Assembly (NCBI GenBank): GCA_964509325.1
Contig: CAZDYM010000001.1
Location: 1 to 34,162, forward strand
DNA length: 34,162 nt
Direction of reading: 5' to 3'
Origin: an uncultured Phycisphaeraceae bacterium
GTDB taxonomy: Bacteria; Planctomycetota; Phycisphaerae; Phycisphaerales; UBA1924
The position numbers and the translations under genes were made by a program. This document shows, piece by piece, positions 12,550 to 17,611 of this stretch; position 1 is the first letter of the stretch, and each line of letters begins with the position of its first letter. Below the pieces are notes generated by a model that was not told where the DNA came from, did not search any database, and was given only the letters and a program-made list of their open reading frames with translations.

Positions 12550-13245
12550 CTAAAAGGGCGAGGGCGACGGTCGTCGGCGATGCGAGGCGGTCAGATGCGC
12601 TCGGAGCGACTCGATGATGTCCCTGTGGCGTCGGGAGACGGTGGCCTTGTTCACGCCCAGGCGCTGGCCCGCCAGTTCCATGGTGAGCCCTTGGGCGTAG
12701 AGCATGTCCATCAACTCGGCCTGATCCGGGGGCAGGGCCTCGAGCGCGGAACGGAGGCGGGCGCGGAGTTCTGCGCTCTCAACTGGGGCTATGGTTCGGT
12801 CCTCGTCGGCGGCCTCCGTGGATCGCTCCTCGTCGCTGCGTGACAGGTCCGTCATCAGCAGCACCGTCCCCAAGCGGGCCACCATCGCGGAGAACTGCGT
12901 CGCGAGGTGCTCGGGATCGTCGGAGGTCTCGATGTCGGCGGCGTGGGATTCGACGGTCTCGTCGAGATGCTCCTGGACGCTGACGGCGCGACGTGAGGCA
13001 GGCGAAAGCCATGTCATCTTCCGGAGCGCATCAAAGACCGCGCCGCGGATGAATCGGTAGGAGAAGGTGGTGAAGGGCACGCCGCGGGTCGGGTCGAAGG
13101 CGGCGCCGGCCCTGGTGAGCCCGAGGAACGCGGCGGCCTCAAGGTCCTCGAACTGGACGCGTCGGGGGAGCGATTTGTGGATCTGCCGCGCCAGCGAGCG
13201 TGCGTAGCCGAGGTGCGCGGTGATGATGGCATCGTGTGCGGTCAC
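12550..13245 (-). CDS. RNA polymerase sigma factor, sigma-70 family group 3 (FliA/WhiG-like)
   Basis: Region 2: FEDLEAAAFLGLTRAGAAFDPTRGVPFTTFSYRFIRGAVFDALRK. Region 4 HTH: LPPDQAELMDMLYAQGLTMELAGQRLGVNKATVSRRHRDIIESLRAHL. I chose the GTG start at 13245 because GGAG lies 5 nt upstream and abuts the TAG stop of the preceding gene (cTAGGAGttcccGTG). The track start at 13299 would overlap that gene by 46 nt. Confidence 0.75.
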   Translation of the reverse strand: MTAHDAIITAHLGYARSLARQIHKSLPRRVQFEDLEAAAFLGLTRAGAAFDPTRGVPFTTFSYRFIRGAVFDALRKMTWLSPASRRAVSVQEHLDETVESHAADIETSDDPEHLATQFSAMVARLGTVLLMTDLSRSDEERSTEAADEDRTIAPVESAELRARLRSALEALPPDQAELMDMLYAQGLTMELAGQRLGVNKATVSRRHRDIIESLRAHLTASHRRRPSPSPF

Positions 13246-13253
13246 GGGAACTC

Positions 13254-14111
13254 CTAGCGACCCGACCCGGGCCCGGCCGAGCCAAGGGCCCAGACCCACA
13301 ACGCACCGGCGGCGACAGCCGCGACAAGGACCACGAGCATGAGCGCTCCACGGCGGCGCCGCAAGCTGCGGGCCCGGGCAGCTTCGTCAGCGTCGATCGC
13401 GGGACTTTCGAGCGAGTCCTCCGCGGGCACGGAGTCGAGCGTCCGGTTCGGGTCTTCGGCGTCGGCTGGGTCCGGCGATCGATCTGGCACCGCTATCGCG
13501 GTCTTGCGAACGTGCTCGGACAGGTCCAGGAAATCCACGCGGCTCGACCCGGCGGTAATGACGTCCTGATGGTGCAAGACGCGGGCTCCGCGCACGCGGA
13601 CGCCGTTGACGAACGTCCCGTGCCGGCTGTCGAGATCGATAACCCGGTGCCGGCCCTCGGCGCGCGCGATGCGGAAGTGACGCGCCGAGACGTGGCGGTC
13701 GTTGAGCGCGATGTCTCCGGGCCCACCGCGGCGGCCGAAGACGAGGCCAGGCTCCGGCATGGCGTTCAAGACGATCTCTCGTGGACCGGCGCCGGGCTCG
13801 CGGACGAGCAGCCGTGGAGTGAATAGGTCCGGCTGGTTGGACGACTTCGCATGATCGTTCGAGAGCAGCGGTCGCGCCTGCAAGCGCCAGGGGCCCGCCT
13901 GGGTCCACGAGGCGGTGTCGAGCGGCCGGGACGACCCGGCGTACTCGGGCGTTGAGAGGGACGCCGACGAGCCGCAGATACGGACGACCACGGAGCCCGA
14001 GGCCTCAGCGGGGTCGATTGCGAGGTCGCCGGGAAGAACAAGGACAGGTGGAACCTCGGCGTTGGGATGGCCGGGCTCTTCGAGGTCGAGAATCAGTCTC
14101 CAGGTGGGCAT
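13254..14111 (-). CDS. FHA-domain protein with C-terminal transmembrane anchor
   Basis: Canonical FHA core: LVFGRRGGPGDIALNDRHVSARHFRIARAEGRHRVIDLDSRHGTFVNGVRVRGARVLHHQDVITAG. There is an acidic linker, then RRRRGALMLVVLVAAVAAGALWVWALG near the C-terminus. The first ~100 aa look like a degenerate second FHA-like module. Confidence 0.75.
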   Translation of the reverse strand: MPTWRLILDLEEPGHPNAEVPPVLVLPGDLAIDPAEASGSVVVRICGSSASLSTPEYAGSSRPLDTASWTQAGPWRLQARPLLSNDHAKSSNQPDLFTPRLLVREPGAGPREIVLNAMPEPGLVFGRRGGPGDIALNDRHVSARHFRIARAEGRHRVIDLDSRHGTFVNGVRVRGARVLHHQDVITAGSSRVDFLDLSEHVRKTAIAVPDRSPDPADAEDPNRTLDSVPAEDSLESPAIDADEAARARSLRRRRGALMLVVLVAAVAAGALWVWALGSAGPGSGR

Positions 14112-14129
14112 GGGGGTTGCGACCGGCCC

Positions 14130-15316: not shown

Positions 15317-15850
15317 TTAAGGTCGGGGCCTCGCCGAGATCGGTGTGGCTTGGGGGAAGTCGCTCGGTGAGCGGCGGATGAGACGCCGAGTTGGGTGACG
15401 GGGGCGGGTGCCAGGGGCCTGGAGTCGGTTGGGCCCCGTCGAGAGTGCCGAGGGGGGTCGAGGGAGCGTGGGGGCGGGTACGGTGGTCGTGGGGGGCCGG
15501 CTCAGGGACGAGCCGCTCTCGGGGGCGAACGCTGCAGGTTTGATGTCCACCAGAAGGCTCGCCTGGCCAACCTTGATGATGTCCCCGCCGCGGATGGGTG
15601 AAGGCCCGGTGAGCGGCTTGTCTTCGAGGAGGGTGCGGGCCTCGGGGTCGAGGGGCTCGACTTCGATGATGTCGCCACGGTGGCGGATGACGATGTGGTG
15701 CCCGCTCACGCCGGGCGATTGAATGGGGAGATTGCAGTCGCGCTGGCTCCCGACAACGCATTCCTCGCCTTTTTCGGAAAGGGAGAAGACGGAACGGAGG
15801 CTCGAGCCCGTTCCGATGACGACGCGGAGTTCAACGATTACCGAAGACAT
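15317..15850 (-). CDS. FHA-domain protein with Pro/Ser/Thr-rich C-terminal tail
   Basis: N-terminal FHA core: ECVVGSQRDCNLPIQSPGVSGHHIVIRHRGDIIEVEPLDPEARTLLEDKPLTGPSPIRGGDIIKVG. GGAGAGAGG lies upstream of the ATG at 15850. The 3' boundary lies in a low-complexity region and is less certain. Confidence 0.7.
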   Translation of the reverse strand: MSSVIVELRVVIGTGSSLRSVFSLSEKGEECVVGSQRDCNLPIQSPGVSGHHIVIRHRGDIIEVEPLDPEARTLLEDKPLTGPSPIRGGDIIKVGQASLLVDIKPAAFAPESGSSLSRPPTTTVPAPTLPRPPSALSTGPNRLQAPGTRPRHPTRRLIRRSPSDFPQATPISARPRP

Positions 15851-15976
15851 GCGGCACCTCTCTCCGCGGTCGCGGAGTGATCTGGCGGAATTCCGCCGAT
15901 CTCACCACCAACGAGCGCAGTATAACGCAAGAAAGAGCCCAGGGCGGTTCAGGTGCGCCATACAGCCAGGTAATTT

Positions 15977-17611
15977 TCACGTCTTGCTCAATCGCTCGAT
16001 TGAAGCGACTGTTGTATCGTCCGTGAACGACCACCCGCCTGCATGGGCGTTCAAAGCCGTAAACACCGATTCGACATCGGCTTGCGCGCCAGAACAAGGG
16101 TTCAGTACGGCGGCGAGCCGGTCGATTCCGAACATGTCCGCACCGGCGCCCTTTTGCTCCACCGCTCCATCGCTAAACAGAATGACGCGCTCGCCGGGGG
16201 CGAGGCGCTCGACGCAGGGGTGAAACGCGGCTTCCGAATCGATACCCAAAAGTAGGCTGCCCTCCTGCCGGCTTCGGCGGATGGTGCCCGCGGCTTCTCT
16301 GATGAGCCAGAGTCCGTGCCCCGCGTCGACGAACTCAACGGTGTCGGAGCGTGGATCGAAAACGCCGGCCCACAGCGAGACGAAGCGACCGTTGGTGGAC
16401 CGGGCCGAAATGAACCTGTTGGTGGCCGTGAGCGCCTCGGCGAGGGAATGTGACTGGAGCGCAGCGCGAAGAAAGGACTGCGCGGCGGCCATAGACATGG
16501 CGGCTCCGACGCCCTTTCCGGTGGCGTCGCCGAGGACAACAGCGACGCGTCCACCGCTGAGCGTGACAACGTCGAACAGGTCTCCCGCGAGCAGGAGGCC
16601 CGGCTTCATTCGGTAGGCGTAGCGGAACGAGGAGACGTCCGCCTGCTGGGCGGGGAGCATGAGTTCCTGAGCGCTTCTGGCGAGGGCGAGGTCCTCCTCG
16701 AACTGGGCTTGGCGCCGCTCGAGTTCCGCGCGTTTGATTCCGGCGAGGGCGAGGCCGCCGAGGTGGGCGATGGCTTCGCAAAGCACGGCGGACTCAGGCC
16801 CGCCTGCCTGCTCGGAGCCGCGGGCGTCGAGGTAGAGATAGGCGGCGCATGACTGCCCGAGCATGATGGGCGCGCAGGCGGCGGAATGGATCTCTAGTCG
16901 GACGATGCTCTCGCCGTGCTGCTGATTCCCGCACGATCTCGAGTCGACCCAGACCATGGTCCCAGAGGCGGCGGCGCGGAGCAGCGACCTGCTGAAGGTA
17001 ATCTCCGGCGCGGGCTGCCCGGCCCGAGAGGCCGCCGCGAGGACCTCGACGTCGCCGCGTTGGTTGATGGGGCGCACGACGGCGCCGCGGGCGAAGCCGC
17101 TGCCGCCGAGCGCGGCGTCGAGCAGCCTCCGCGCCAGTTCGCGTTCGTCGTTAGCGGCGTGGAGCGCGGTCGCGCAGTTCAGGATGAGCCGAAGGTGCTC
17201 CGAGGCGAAGCGCGAGGCCCCCGGGACGGCGCGGGGCTGAAAATCGACCGCTCGGTCCTCGACGGTGGGCCGGGTGTCCGGCTCGGCGGTGCTGCCGGTG
17301 ACCTGCAGCGCCCAGGGGCCGATGCGGATTACGTCACCGGGCCGGATCGGGCTGGCCCGATTGGCCTCGAGGCGGACGCCGTTGAGCAGCGTGCCGAGCC
17401 GACTGGCGAGGTCGATGAGGTACCAGTGGCCCGTGGCGTGAACCAGTTGAGCGTGGACGCGAGAGACGGATTCGTCCGGTAGGACCCAGTCGCAACGGGC
17501 GGAACGCCCAACGGTGAGTGAGCCATGAAGGCGTTGTAAAGCCAGCGGTTCAACGGCGGGGCCGGCGATGCCGAGGATCGTGAGATTGGCGGTTTCTGGC
17601 TGTCCGCTCAT
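15977..17611 (-). CDS. FHA-GAF-PP2C (SpoIIE-type) Ser/Thr phosphatase
   Basis: FHA: LTVGRSARCDWVLPDESVSRVHAQLVHATGHWYLIDLASRLGTLLNGVRL...GDVIRIG. The central region is GAF-like (...IHSAACAPIMLGQSCAAYLYLD...). PP2C/SpoIIE motifs: LAGDLFDV, LGDATGKGVGAAMSMA, FVSLWAGVFD, VDAGH, ILFSDGAVE, TDDTTV. The start may be the ATG at 17611 or at 17677; neither has a clear SD. Confidence 0.8.
   Translation of the reverse strand: MSGQPETANLTILGIAGPAVEPLALQRLHGSLTVGRSARCDWVLPDESVSRVHAQLVHATGHWYLIDLASRLGTLLNGVRLEANRASPIRPGDVIRIGPWALQVTGSTAEPDTRPTVEDRAVDFQPRAVPGASRFASEHLRLILNCATALHAANDERELARRLLDAALGGSGFARGAVVRPINQRGDVEVLAAASRAGQPAPEITFSRSLLRAAASGTMVWVDSRSCGNQQHGESIVRLEIHSAACAPIMLGQSCAAYLYLDARGSEQAGGPESAVLCEAIAHLGGLALAGIKRAELERRQAQFEEDLALARSAQELMLPAQQADVSSFRYAYRMKPGLLLAGDLFDVVTLSGGRVAVVLGDATGKGVGAAMSMAAAQSFLRAALQSHSLAEALTATNRFISARSTNGRFVSLWAGVFDPRSDTVEFVDAGHGLWLIREAAGTIRRSRQEGSLLLGIDSEAAFHPCVERLAPGERVILFSDGAVEQKGAGADMFGIDRLAAVLNPCSGAQADVESVFTALNAHAGGWSFTDDTTVASIERLSKT

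What the first reader, a model, noticed from the sequence alone, without database searches (positions are those of the whole stretch)
12550..17611. Five-gene FHA / Ser-Thr kinase / PP2C / sigma-factor operon sits between the T3SS and the TPS system
The genes are all on the minus strand with short gaps. Their order is: FHA-GAF-PP2C phosphatase, FHA protein, Hanks kinase (catalytic domain only), FHA protein with TM anchor, FliA-type sigma factor. That gives three FHA (phosphothreonine-reader) domains plus a writer, an eraser and a transcriptional output in a single unit.

The operon ends 3 bp from sctV and starts about 110-176 bp from tpsB, in divergent orientation. It parallels two known cases:
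- The PpkA/PppA/Fha1 threonine-phosphorylation switch of the P. aeruginosa H1-T6SS.
- PknD phosphorylation of the FHA-bearing SctD (CdsD) in Chlamydia.

A kinase/phosphatase/FHA cascade ending in a dedicated sigma factor next to an injectisome is not a described T3SS regulatory scheme as far as I know.
Basis: partly seen in the sequence, partly recalled or inferred. Interest (0 to 1): 0.75.

Follow-up and report, generated by a model that had tools for sequence, protein, structure and literature searches.

The report
Phospho-switch and sigma factor beside injectisome
A Planctomycete type III secretion locus carries a flagellar-type sigma factor gene that is always paired with a membrane-anchored phosphothreonine-reader gene, here joined by a kinase and a phosphatase, which looks like an undescribed way of switching a secretion system on.

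Summary
The domain calls hold: FHA-GAF-PP2C, FHA, Hanks kinase, FHA with a C-terminal TM helix, and a σ28/FliA-like sigma. The unit lies 3 nt from sctV and 176 nt from tpsB.

Corrections:
- The "FHA protein" and the "kinase" form one FHA-kinase gene in the 70%-identical relative. In the window a frameshift in a poly-C linker splits them, so there are four ancestral genes, not five.
- The FHA-TM protein is tail-anchored and is not an SctD.

Comparative genomics:
- In about 23 of 29 Planctomycetota loci of this sigma clade, a tail-anchored FHA gene sits directly upstream of the sigma gene.
- At least 18 of these loci lie inside or beside non-flagellar T3SS clusters.
- A Ser/Thr kinase is adjacent in 7 loci, in two different architectures.
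- FHA-PP2C is adjacent only here, in the close relative and in one other locus. Its family is widespread elsewhere in Phycisphaerae.
- A second clade of the same sigma family sits directly upstream of tssA-tssB-tssC in 38 of 43 loci.

The sigma is therefore very probably dedicated to a secretion system. Regulation by threonine phosphorylation through the tail-anchored FHA partner is plausible but untested. I found no prior description.

The parts
15977..17611 (-). FHA-GAF-PP2C (SpoIIE/RsbU-type) phosphatase, 544 aa
   Evidence: Pfam finds FHA and SpoIIE, with GAF sub-threshold. The AF2 model has pLDDT 88.9. Foldseek matches RssB/Rv1364c/SpoIIE PP2C, OdhI FHA and phytochrome GAF. The start at 17611 aligns with the L008 start. 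Metal-binding Asp motifs are kept. The FHA residues G35, R36, S50 and H53 are invariant in 55 homologs.
15317..15850 (-). FHA ORF (177 aa). This is the N-terminal part of an ancestral FHA-kinase gene. The last ~60-70 codons are probably out of frame.
   Evidence: Pfam FHA 3.7e-10. It is collinear with the N-terminus of the 559-aa FHA-kinase of L008. GC3 in this frame decays after about 15490.
15404..15525 (-). Pro-rich linker with C5-C6 homopolymer runs. This is the inferred site of a one-base frameshift separating the FHA and kinase frames.
   Evidence: The linker length differs from L008 by 53 nt (53 mod 3 = 2). The EAPTLIP motif is conserved in the kinase frame upstream of the FHA-frame stop.
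14130..15761 (-). Hanks-type Ser/Thr kinase reading frame. An independent ATG at 15227 would give 365 aa. The kinase is non-RD (HYD) and has a ~65-aa insert.
   Evidence: Pfam Pkinase 7.8e-41. Alignment to PknB shows the catalytic Lys, Asp, Asn, DFG and APE present. Candidate starts are listed.
13254..14111 (-). Tail-anchored FHA protein, 285 aa. It has an N-terminal beta domain, a canonical FHA domain, a disordered acidic linker and a C-terminal TM helix.
   Evidence: Pfam FHA 2.1e-15. AF2 model. Top Foldseek hits are OdhI/GarA at 35% identity, with no SctD in the top 50. The same architecture sits directly upstream of the sigma in about 23 loci, with 2-19 residues after the TM helix.
12550..13245 (-). 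σ28/FliA-like group-3 sigma factor, 231 aa. The GTG start lies 8 nt after the FHA gene stop.
   Evidence: Pfam regions 2 and 4. NCBIfam FliA_WhiG scores 99 bits, below the cutoff. A family profile against PDB hits FliA at 1e-23 to 1e-33, against SigA at 1e-13. The called 231-aa product is P0001.
10414..12546 (+). sctV (FHIPEP export-gate protein), convergent with the sigma gene across a 3-nt gap
   Evidence: Pfam FHIPEP 2.7e-192. NCBIfam SctV scores 616 bits and FlhA 562. In PDB, SctV 7alw scores 427 bits and FlhA 375.
17666..17713 (.). Divergent control region between PP2C and tpsB. It holds a 27-nt block identical to L008 except for one base. The block contains a σ54-like TGGCAY-N5-ATGCT facing PP2C and a TTGACC-N16-TATGCT facing tpsB.
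   Evidence: Function is unknown. The σ54 reading is not above chance in the window and is not seen upstream of other PP2C homologs.
15851..15976 (-). 126-nt leader between the PP2C and FHA-kinase genes, with two hairpins conserved in L008
   Evidence: There is one compensatory pair in the first stem. The folding z-score is only -1.8.
17788..20652 (+). tpsB-like Omp85 transporter, 954 aa, divergent from PP2C
   Evidence: Weak ShlB and Omp85 hits. Its N-terminus is conserved and syntenic in L008.
20727..34162 (+). Giant TpsA exoprotein of more than 4470 aa that runs off the contig
   Evidence: The open frame is shown. Pfam TPS domain 1.3e-21.
734..3013 (-). T3SS genes at the left end: sctJ (734-1627; lipobox plus C-terminal TM helix), an SctI-like gene (1676-2110; weak) and a TPR class-II-like chaperone (2525-3013)
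6782..10177 (+). Probable T3SS substrates or accessories upstream of sctV: a DUF1521 (NopE-type) protein (6782-7789), a 221-aa protein, and a 501-aa protein homologous to the gene upstream of sctV in relatives

Best explanation
The region is a threonine-phosphorylation signalling cassette joined to a secretion-system-specific sigma factor, in a Phycisphaerae-type (Planctomycetota) non-flagellar T3SS locus.

Shown:
- The conserved core is a gene pair: a tail-anchored protein with a canonical phosphothreonine-binding FHA domain, followed within 0-20 nt by a σ28-like sigma factor.
- The pair is usually embedded in T3SS clusters and is often accompanied by a Hanks kinase.
- Other branches of the same sigma family sit at the head of T6SS operons.

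Inferred mechanism:
1. The sigma directs transcription of the neighbouring T3SS genes, and possibly of tpsBA.
2. Its activity is gated at the inner membrane by the tail-anchored FHA protein, which would act like an anti-sigma factor or tether.
3. The interaction depends on a phosphothreonine written by the FHA-kinase and erased by the FHA-GAF-PP2C phosphatase.
4. The phosphatase's FHA domain would dock it on the phosphorylated kinase or substrate. Its GAF domain could sense a small ligand.

In this contig the kinase gene is split by a frameshift. The kinase is therefore either made without its FHA domain from ATG 15227, is inactive, or the shift is an assembly error.
For: - Domain architecture and intact catalytic and pThr-binding residues.
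- Tail-anchored FHA gene directly upstream of the sigma gene in about 23 of 29 loci of the clade. The gaps are 4-nt overlaps in L001 and the JGI contig, 19 nt in L003 and 8 nt here.
- T3SS core genes (SctV, SctJ, SctRSTU, and SctN/L/O in the JGI contig) within 10 kb in at least 18 loci.
- L095 and the JGI contig repeat the convergent sigma/sctV arrangement.
- Ser/Thr kinase adjacent in L012 and L019 (same strand, orthologous to the window kinase, E 4e-36 and 9e-44) and in L016-L018 and L026 (divergent receptor kinases with DUF4384).
- FHA-SpoIIE next to sctV in L028.
- The closest PP2C homologs are themselves wired to sigma plus Ser/Thr kinase operons in L009, L091 and L092.
- The FHA domain of the anchored protein resembles the signalling FHA proteins OdhI/GarA and not SctD.
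- The sigma family profile hits FliA structures 10-20 orders of magnitude better than other sigmas.
- A second clade shows sigma followed by tssA-tssB-tssC in 38 of 43 loci.
- Synteny tpsB / PP2C / FHA-kinase / FHA-TA holds in the 70% relative.
Against: - No experiment exists, and no promoter motif links the sigma to the T3SS or TPS genes. The FliA consensus is not above chance. tpsB has a σ70-like promoter.
- No phospho-acceptor was identified. Conserved Thr residues in the sigma are ordinary region-2 positions.
- The PP2C family mostly lies at non-T3SS loci.
- The kinase, FHA-TA and sigma triad lies among housekeeping genes in L012 and L019. The sigma is alone in L010, L011 and L015.
- The kinase gene is frameshifted in this contig.
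- Planctomycetota are very rich in Ser/Thr kinases, FHA domains and PP2C phosphatases, so some adjacency is expected by chance.
Confidence: 0.5

Rival explanations
1. The phospho-module controls the secretion machine post-translationally, like the PpkA/PppA/Fha1 pathway of the H1-T6SS or PknD-CdsD in Chlamydia. The tail-anchored FHA protein would dock on a phosphorylated T3SS basal-body or sorting-platform component. The sigma would simply be co-encoded and not its target.
For: T3SS, kinase and FHA occur together in the loci. All FHA domains also hit the Yop-YscD_cpl model. The Chlamydia CT664 FHA domain is among the structural matches (rank 18). The Chlamydia and T6SS precedents come from established knowledge.
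Against: The FHA gene is coupled to the sigma gene (0-20 nt gap) wherever the pair moves, including loci with no T3SS gene within 10 kb (L012, L019). It is not coupled to any structural T3SS gene.
Confidence: 0.2
2. The FHA-TM protein is a degenerate SctD (inner-membrane ring protein). The sigma is an ordinary co-regulated gene. The kinase and phosphatase are unrelated neighbours from the large Planctomycete signalling repertoire.
For: The Yop-YscD_cpl hit scores 37.7 bits, above the 33.2 cutoff. No other FHA/SctD candidate is seen in the 20-kb JGI T3SS cluster. The PP2C family is widespread at unrelated loci.
Against: Only 2-19 residues follow the TM helix in every homolog, so no periplasmic ring domain exists. 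The pThr-binding Arg, Ser, His and Asn are conserved. The nearest structures are OdhI/GarA and not YscD/PrgH. The pair occurs without T3SS genes in L012 and L019. The kinase recurs in two architectures.
Confidence: 0.1
3. The sigma is the organism's flagellar FliA and the FHIPEP protein is FlhA. The cluster would then be a flagellar flhA...fliA arrangement with unrelated signalling genes inserted.
For: The best family for the sigma is FliA/WhiG. FHIPEP scores on the SctV and FlhA models are close (616 against 562 bits). Adjacency of flhA and fliA is classical in flagellar loci (established knowledge).
Against: SctJ is a short lipoprotein with a C-terminal TM helix and is not FliF. An SctI-like gene, a TPR chaperone and a DUF1521 effector are present. 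No rod, hook, motor or switch genes appear in the window or in the 20-kb JGI cluster. No σ28 consensus promoters were found.
Confidence: 0.05

Closest known systems
Flagellar σ28 (FliA) with anti-sigma FlgM; fliA next to flhA in many flagellar loci, and Chlamydia σ28 next to an flhA paralog (the Chlamydia gene order is from memory)
   Same: The sigma is FliA-like over its whole length. It sits beside the FHIPEP export-gate gene of a type III export machine. It has a small partner gene tightly linked to it.
   Different: It scores below the FliA family cutoff. The machine is a non-flagellar T3SS. The partner is a tail-anchored FHA protein rather than an exported FlgM. No σ28 consensus promoters were found.
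Xanthomonas citri PknS/EcfK (to TagK) and Vibrio PknT/EcfP: a Hanks kinase activates a sigma factor by phosphorylation. In Xanthomonas this switches on a T6SS and T5SS genes (PMC13584744, PMC7826278).
   Same: A Ser/Thr kinase is encoded next to an alternative sigma. The inferred output is a secretion system, with a T5SS/TPS neighbour.
   Different: Those sigmas are two-domain ECF43 factors with no FHA partner and no PP2C. Here the sigma is group-3/σ28-like with an obligatory tail-anchored FHA partner, and the secretion system is a T3SS.
Bordetella bsc/btr locus: ECF sigma BtrS with secreted anti-sigma BtrA (PMC9549215), plus the BtrU (PP2C)/BtrW/BtrV partner switch (from memory)
   Same: A dedicated sigma and a SpoIIE/RsbU-type PP2C phosphatase are encoded in a T3SS locus.
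   Different: No STAS antagonist and no RsbW-type kinase are present here. Phosphorylation is by a Hanks kinase and is read by FHA domains. The sigma is not an ECF factor.
P. aeruginosa H1-T6SS threonine phosphorylation pathway (PpkA/PppA/Fha1) and Chlamydia PknD-CdsD
   Same: A writer, an eraser and an FHA reader are encoded with a secretion machine.
   Different: Those pathways act post-translationally on the machine and have no sigma output. PppA is a PstP-type PP2C, PpkA is a receptor kinase, and CdsD/Fha1 are structural or scaffold proteins. The NCBIfam TagH model scores only 21-59 bits against a 120 cutoff.
HrpL / ECF32 sigma factors of Hrp T3SS clusters (PMC7826278)
   Same: An alternative sigma is conserved in the genomic context of a T3SS and dedicated to it.
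   Different: HrpL belongs to a different sigma group (ECF). It is controlled transcriptionally through σ54 and HrpR/S or two-component systems, not by an FHA/kinase module.

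Membership tests
FliA/WhiG (σ28) sigma factors | Score above the curated family cutoff (TIGR02479, 189.6 bits) | tested here: not met
   99.4 bits with full-length alignment 2-223/224.
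FliA/WhiG (σ28) sigma factors | Closest solved relatives are σ28 proteins, with group-3 length and layout | tested here: met
   The profile of 7 clade members hits FliA (6pmi, 9wsm, 1rp3) at 1e-23 to 1e-33. The next class, SigA, is at 1e-13.
FliA/WhiG (σ28) sigma factors | TAAA-N15-GCCGATAA promoters upstream of target genes | tested here: not met
   3 matches with up to 3 mismatches against 5.2 expected. None lies upstream of an operon.
FliA/WhiG (σ28) sigma factors | Control of flagellar late genes; FlgM partner | not testable with these tools
   No flagellar genes and no recognisable FlgM in the window. The regulon is unknown.
SctD (YscD/PrgH/CdsD) inner-membrane ring protein | Cytoplasmic FHA-like domain, one TM helix, then a periplasmic ring-building domain of about 200-300 aa | tested here: not met
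   The TM helix is at residues ~241-276 of 285. Homologs have 2-19 residues after the TM helix.
SctD (YscD/PrgH/CdsD) inner-membrane ring protein | FHA fold closest to SctD cytoplasmic domains | tested here: not met
   The top 50 Foldseek hits are OdhI, GarA, FhaA, EmbR and similar proteins. No YscD, PrgH or MxiG appears. The Pfam Yop-YscD_cpl hit (37.7 bits) is weaker than the FHA hit (57.3 bits).
T6SS-type threonine phosphorylation pathway (PpkA/PppA/Fha1-TagH) | TagH/Fha1-family FHA protein | tested here: not met
   TIGR03354 scores 59.5 and 21.2 bits against a cutoff of 120.
T6SS-type threonine phosphorylation pathway (PpkA/PppA/Fha1-TagH) | Hanks kinase plus PP2C encoded with the machine | tested here: met
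   Pkinase and SpoIIE domains are present with intact catalytic residues. The PP2C is RsbU/SpoIIE-type, not PppA/PstP-type.
Partner-switching module (RsbU/RsbV/RsbW; BtrU/V/W) | SpoIIE/RsbU-type PP2C | tested here: met
   PF07228 at 1.4e-38. The nearest structures are Rv1364c RsbU, RssB and SpoIIE.
Partner-switching module (RsbU/RsbV/RsbW; BtrU/V/W) | STAS anti-sigma antagonist and GHKL-type anti-sigma kinase | tested here: not met
   No STAS or HATPase_c hit in any ORF of the unit or its neighbours.
Ser/Thr-kinase-phosphorylated ECF sigmas (ECF43: EcfP/PknT, EcfK/PknS) | Two-domain ECF sigma | tested here: not met
   The best models are FliA/WhiG and SigB/F/G, with about 80 residues between σ2 and σ4.
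Ser/Thr-kinase-phosphorylated ECF sigmas (ECF43: EcfP/PknT, EcfK/PknS) | Hanks kinase conserved in the sigma's gene neighbourhood | tested here: met
   Window, L012, L016, L017, L018, L019 and L026.
Non-flagellar T3SS (injectisome-type) | SctV, SctJ lipoprotein and SctRSTU/N/L/O without flagellar rod, hook or motor genes | tested here: met
   SctV scores above FlhA. SctJ has a lipobox and a C-terminal TM helix. The full set is present in related clusters. Secretin and needle genes were not found in the stretches examined.
Two-partner secretion (TpsB/TpsA) | TPS domain at the exoprotein N-terminus, with an Omp85/ShlB transporter upstream | tested here: met
   TPS at 1.3e-21. ShlB at 2.3e-6 and Omp85 at 4.5e-6 are weak.

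The most novel reading that the evidence does not exclude
Planctomycetota may possess a σ28-derived family of secretion-system-specific sigma factors. In this reading, the T3SS branch is held in check by a new class of anti-sigma factor: a tail-anchored FHA protein whose grip is set by threonine phosphorylation from a Hanks kinase and reversed by an FHA-GAF-PP2C. A phospho-switch would thus replace the FlgM export checkpoint of the flagellar ancestor. The T6SS branch would use a different ~141-aa partner.
Probability: 0.3. Interest if true: 0.85.

Novelty: new variant of a known kind. Interest (0 to 1): 0.68.

Why it matters
Non-flagellar T3SSs are thought to descend from the flagellum. Their known regulators (AraC factors, ECF HrpL/BtrS, ExsA cascades) are unrelated to flagellar σ28.

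A σ28-like factor conserved inside early-branching T3SS clusters of an environmental phylum, and at the head of T6SS operons in a second clade, would show two things. A flagellar-type sigma was retained or re-used for secretion machines. Its checkpoint was rebuilt around phosphothreonine signalling.

The finding also gives a concrete, testable gene pair (tail-anchored FHA plus sigma) for studying how Planctomycetota, which have very few characterised regulators, switch on contact-dependent weapons.

Tried and rejected
- Exact look-up of the window SctV found nothing on record.
- The homolog search with the FHA-TM protein gave only one full-length relative, because the protein evolves fast. Homologs had to be recovered by synteny.
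- The FliA consensus promoter search was not above chance.
- A σ54-type promoter (TGGCAY-N5-ATGCT) is conserved between the window and L008 upstream of PP2C. It is not enriched in the window (15 matches against 10.8 expected), not enriched upstream of genes in related loci, and absent upstream of other PP2C homologs. I kept it only as a side note.
- De novo promoter discovery across loci was abandoned because my GC3-based gene calls were too noisy.
- The idea that the sigma lacks the acidic region-2 motif, as ECF43 does, was rejected by eye. The FEDL motif is present.
- The Polyangia sigma clade next to an SctJ-like gene is not a full T3SS cluster; DNA polymerase III delta' and other housekeeping genes follow it. 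I did not count it as T3SS-linked.
- Rfam found nothing in the window.
- Terminator-like sites inside the unit are at chance level.

Full report
**What is in the window**

The window is a complete 34,162-bp contig with 68% G+C. The closest named relatives of its proteins are Phycisphaerae/Planctomycetota MAGs.

- FHA plus SpoIIE-type PP2C (15977-17611).
- FHA (15317-15850).
- Protein kinase (reading frame 14130-15761).
- FHA plus a C-terminal hydrophobic helix (13254-14111).
- A sigma-70-family protein with regions 2 and 4 (12550-13245; the called product is 231 aa).

The GAF domain is sub-threshold by sequence. An AlphaFold model built on 55 homologs (pLDDT 88.9) shows FHA, a GAF-like alpha/beta domain, a long connecting helix and PP2C. 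Foldseek matches OdhI-type FHA, phytochrome GAF/PHY and RssB/Rv1364c/SpoIIE phosphatases.

Neighbours:
- sctV (FHIPEP) ends 3 nt from the sigma stop, in convergent orientation.
- A weak ShlB/Omp85 protein, tpsB, starts 176 nt from the PP2C ATG. A >4470-aa ORF with a TPS domain follows it.
- The T3SS context is real. The left end of the contig carries an SctJ lipoprotein (lipobox LTAGC and a C-terminal TM helix), a weak SctI-like gene and a TPR chaperone. A DUF1521 (NopE-type) protein lies upstream of sctV.
- SctV scores slightly above FlhA on both NCBIfam and PDB searches.

**Corrections to the observation**

*The FHA and kinase ORFs are one ancestral gene.*
- The two ORFs overlap by 445 nt in different frames.
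- In the only close relative (L008, a Logan contig, about 70% protein identity) the same positions encode one 559-aa FHA-linker-kinase protein. The gene order tpsB (divergent) / PP2C / FHA-kinase / FHA-TM is preserved there.
- In the window the conserved linker motif EAPTLIP is read in the kinase frame about 85 nt upstream of the FHA-frame stop.
- Third-position G+C switches frames around 15450-15520. That stretch holds several C5-C6 runs.
- A one-base deletion in a poly-C run explains the data. Whether it is biological or an assembly error cannot be decided here.
- If it is real, the kinase could still be made from ATG 15227 (365 aa). Orthologous kinases in L012 and L019 naturally lack the FHA domain.
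- The kinase keeps the catalytic Lys, Asp, Asn, DFG and APE motifs, and is a non-RD (HYD) kinase with a ~65-residue insert.
- The PP2C keeps its metal-binding Asp motifs.

*The FHA-TM protein is not an SctD.*
- The AF2 model gives a small N-terminal beta domain, a high-confidence FHA domain, a disordered acidic linker and a terminal helix. Only a few residues follow the helix.
- Its FHA domain is closest to the signalling proteins OdhI/GarA (35% identity). No SctD cytoplasmic domain appears among the top 50 structural matches.

**Comparative evidence centred on the sigma**

Few close homologs exist. A profile scan of one genome per GTDB species returned 80 loci. I annotated them with phmmer/HMM searches seeded from the window and from Pfam-annotated related contigs.

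A neighbour-joining tree places the window in a clade of about 29 Planctomycetota loci, mostly Phycisphaerae.
- In about 23 of these loci the gene immediately upstream of the sigma encodes an FHA protein with a single C-terminal TM helix and only 2-19 residues after it. The canonical pThr-pocket residues (GR, S-x-x-H, T/N-G) are conserved in that protein.
- Independent gene calls show 4-nt overlaps or gaps under 20 nt between the two genes. The window gap is 8 nt.
- At least 18 loci have T3SS core genes within 10 kb.
- A 61-kb JGI contig shows a full cluster: sctJ-sctL-sctN-sctO...sctV, convergent with sctRSTU-FHA-sigma, and no flagellar rod, hook or motor genes.
- L095 repeats the convergent sigma/sctV junction of the window.

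A Ser/Thr kinase is adjacent in 7 loci, in two architectures:
- A cytoplasmic kinase on the same strand immediately upstream in the window, L012 and L019. The L012 and L019 kinases are orthologous to the window kinase (E 4e-36 and 9e-44).
- A divergently transcribed receptor kinase with a DUF4384 domain in L016, L017, L018 and L026.

**Limits of the association**

- The closest named sigma homologs (L010 and L011 at 46-48% identity, and L015) stand alone among housekeeping genes.
- The kinase, tail-anchored FHA and sigma triads of L012 and L019 also lie among housekeeping genes such as a PLP-dependent decarboxylase and succinyl-CoA ligase.
- The FHA-GAF-PP2C family has hundreds of members at 38-46% identity across Phycisphaerae.
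  - In L006 and L090 it has unrelated neighbours.
  - In L009, L091 and L092 it lies divergent from an operon of ECF-like sigma, ~930-aa kinase, ~600-aa protein and a second FHA-SpoIIE.
  - A full FHA...SpoIIE protein lies beside a T3SS sigma only in the window, in L008 and in L028, where it is next to sctV.
- The phosphatase is therefore the least firmly attached part of the proposed cascade. Its family does seem generally tied to sigma plus kinase cassettes.

**A broader pattern found on the way**

A second clade of the same sigma family has 43 loci. It includes Fuerstiella, Pirellulales including Rhodopirellula baltica, Novipirellula, Kuenenia and several Phycisphaerae.
- The sigma gene lies immediately upstream of tssA-tssB-tssC in 38 loci.
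- A conserved ~141-aa soluble protein lies just upstream of the sigma in at least 25 loci.
- In L069 and L074 a TpsB/TpsA pair lies directly upstream as well.

The σ28-like family therefore behaves as a set of secretion-system sigma factors in this phylum. Each branch has its own small partner gene. By analogy, this is the strongest argument that the window's sigma is dedicated to the adjacent T3SS.

**What the sigma is**

- A profile of seven clade members hits solved FliA/σ28 structures at E 1e-23 to 1e-33. Primary sigmas score 1e-13.
- The FliA_WhiG model aligns end to end but scores 99 bits against a cutoff of 189.6.
- No σ28 consensus promoters occur above chance.
- The sigma is best described as a divergent σ28-like group-3 factor, not a FliA ortholog.
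- Its position beside the FHIPEP gene echoes flagellar flhA...fliA clusters. It also echoes, from memory, the Chlamydia flhA-paralog/σ28 pair.

**Mechanism**

Shown: the architecture, the intact catalytic and pThr-binding residues, tight coupling of the FHA-TA and sigma genes, recurrent kinase adjacency, and T3SS or T6SS neighbourhoods.

Inferred:
1. The tail-anchored FHA protein gates or tethers the sigma at the membrane in a phosphothreonine-dependent way.
2. The kinase writes the mark and the FHA-GAF-PP2C erases it. The GAF domain may act as a ligand sensor.
3. The sigma transcribes T3SS genes and perhaps TPS genes.

I put about 0.7 on "dedicated secretion-system sigma", about 0.45 on "FHA partner regulates it through pThr", and about 0.5 overall. 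The main rival is post-translational control of the machine, as in PpkA/PppA/Fha1 or PknD-CdsD. The SctD-remnant and flagellar readings are disfavoured by topology, structure and gene content.

**Comparison with the literature**

Searches of the held library found no description of a Phycisphaerae T3SS, of a tail-anchored FHA plus sigma pair, or of a T6SS-linked σ28-like factor in Planctomycetota. Related schemes are known:
- ECF32/HrpL with T3SS, and sigma phosphorylation by Ser/Thr kinases (PMC7826278).
- BtrS/BtrA in Bordetella (PMC9549215).
- PknS to EcfK to TagK to T6SS plus T5SS in Xanthomonas (PMC13584744).
- The needle-less T3SS* of Myxococcus as an environmental, non-host T3SS (PMC12075869).

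The finding is therefore a new variant of a known kind, not a new category.

**Side observations in the control regions**

- The PP2C/tpsB intergenic region holds a 27-nt block nearly identical in L008. It can be read as a σ54-type promoter toward PP2C and as a TTGACC-N16-TATGCT promoter toward tpsB.
- The 126-nt leader before the FHA-kinase gene has two hairpins conserved in L008, with one compensatory pair.

Neither feature is statistically compelling alone.

Noticed in passing
L033-L089 (e.g. L074:9524-13975, L060, L069): A second clade of the same σ28-like sigma family sits directly upstream of tssA-tssB-tssC (T6SS) in 38 of 43 Planctomycetota loci. A conserved ~141-aa soluble protein with no Pfam hit lies just upstream of the sigma in at least 25 loci. 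L069 and L074 also have TpsB/TpsA immediately upstream. I found no description of this in the literature searches.
   Followed up: partly
L009:2403-9860, L091:623-7863, L092:354-7778: The closest homologs of the window PP2C lie divergent from a recurrent cassette: ECF-like sigma, ~930-aa Ser/Thr kinase (not called in L092), ~600-aa protein with no Pfam hit, and a second FHA-SpoIIE phosphatase. This looks like a general Phycisphaerae sigma/kinase/FHA-PP2C module.
   Followed up: partly
window 8672-10177 (+): The 501-aa protein directly upstream of sctV has no Pfam hit. It contains a striking Lys/Gly-rich amphipathic repeat (GKLKKAFKKIGGAFKKGFTKLGGAMKKIGGAIKKGLRKIGKF). Its N-terminal part is homologous to the gene upstream of sctV in related clusters (the 485-aa protein of L001).
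   Followed up: no
window 6782-7789 (+); also L005, L014, L020, L025, L031, L071, L088: A DUF1521 protein (the domain of rhizobial NopE-type autocleaving T3SS effectors, from memory) recurs in these environmental T3SS loci, including Acidobacteriota (Pyrinomonadaceae) loci.
   Followed up: partly
window 17666-17713: A 27-nt block in the PP2C/tpsB intergenic region is conserved with the 70% relative while the flanks have diverged. It reads as a σ54-like -24/-12 element toward PP2C and as a σ70-like TTGACC-N16-TATGCT toward tpsB. In L090 a PP2C homolog follows a histidine kinase and a σ54 activator.
   Followed up: partly
window 15851-15976 (-): The leader of the FHA-kinase gene has two GC-rich hairpins conserved in L008, with one compensatory base-pair change. 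No T-tract follows and there is no Rfam match.
   Followed up: partly
window 20727-34162 (+): The TpsA-like exoprotein ORF is over 4470 codons long and runs off the contig end. GC skew changes sign inside it near 26-31 kb.
   Followed up: no
window 3791-6578: Gene calls are ambiguous. A 635-aa minus-strand ORF (3791-5698) overlaps plus-strand ORFs of 393 and 438 aa, all with high GC3. Only the 438-aa ORF has a homolog in a related locus (L005).
   Followed up: no
L064, L065, L076, L080, L086 (Polyangia MAGs): A Myxococcota branch of the sigma family lies next to a YscJ/FliF-domain protein and a TPR Ser/Thr kinase. It is followed by housekeeping genes and not by a full T3SS cluster.
   Followed up: partly
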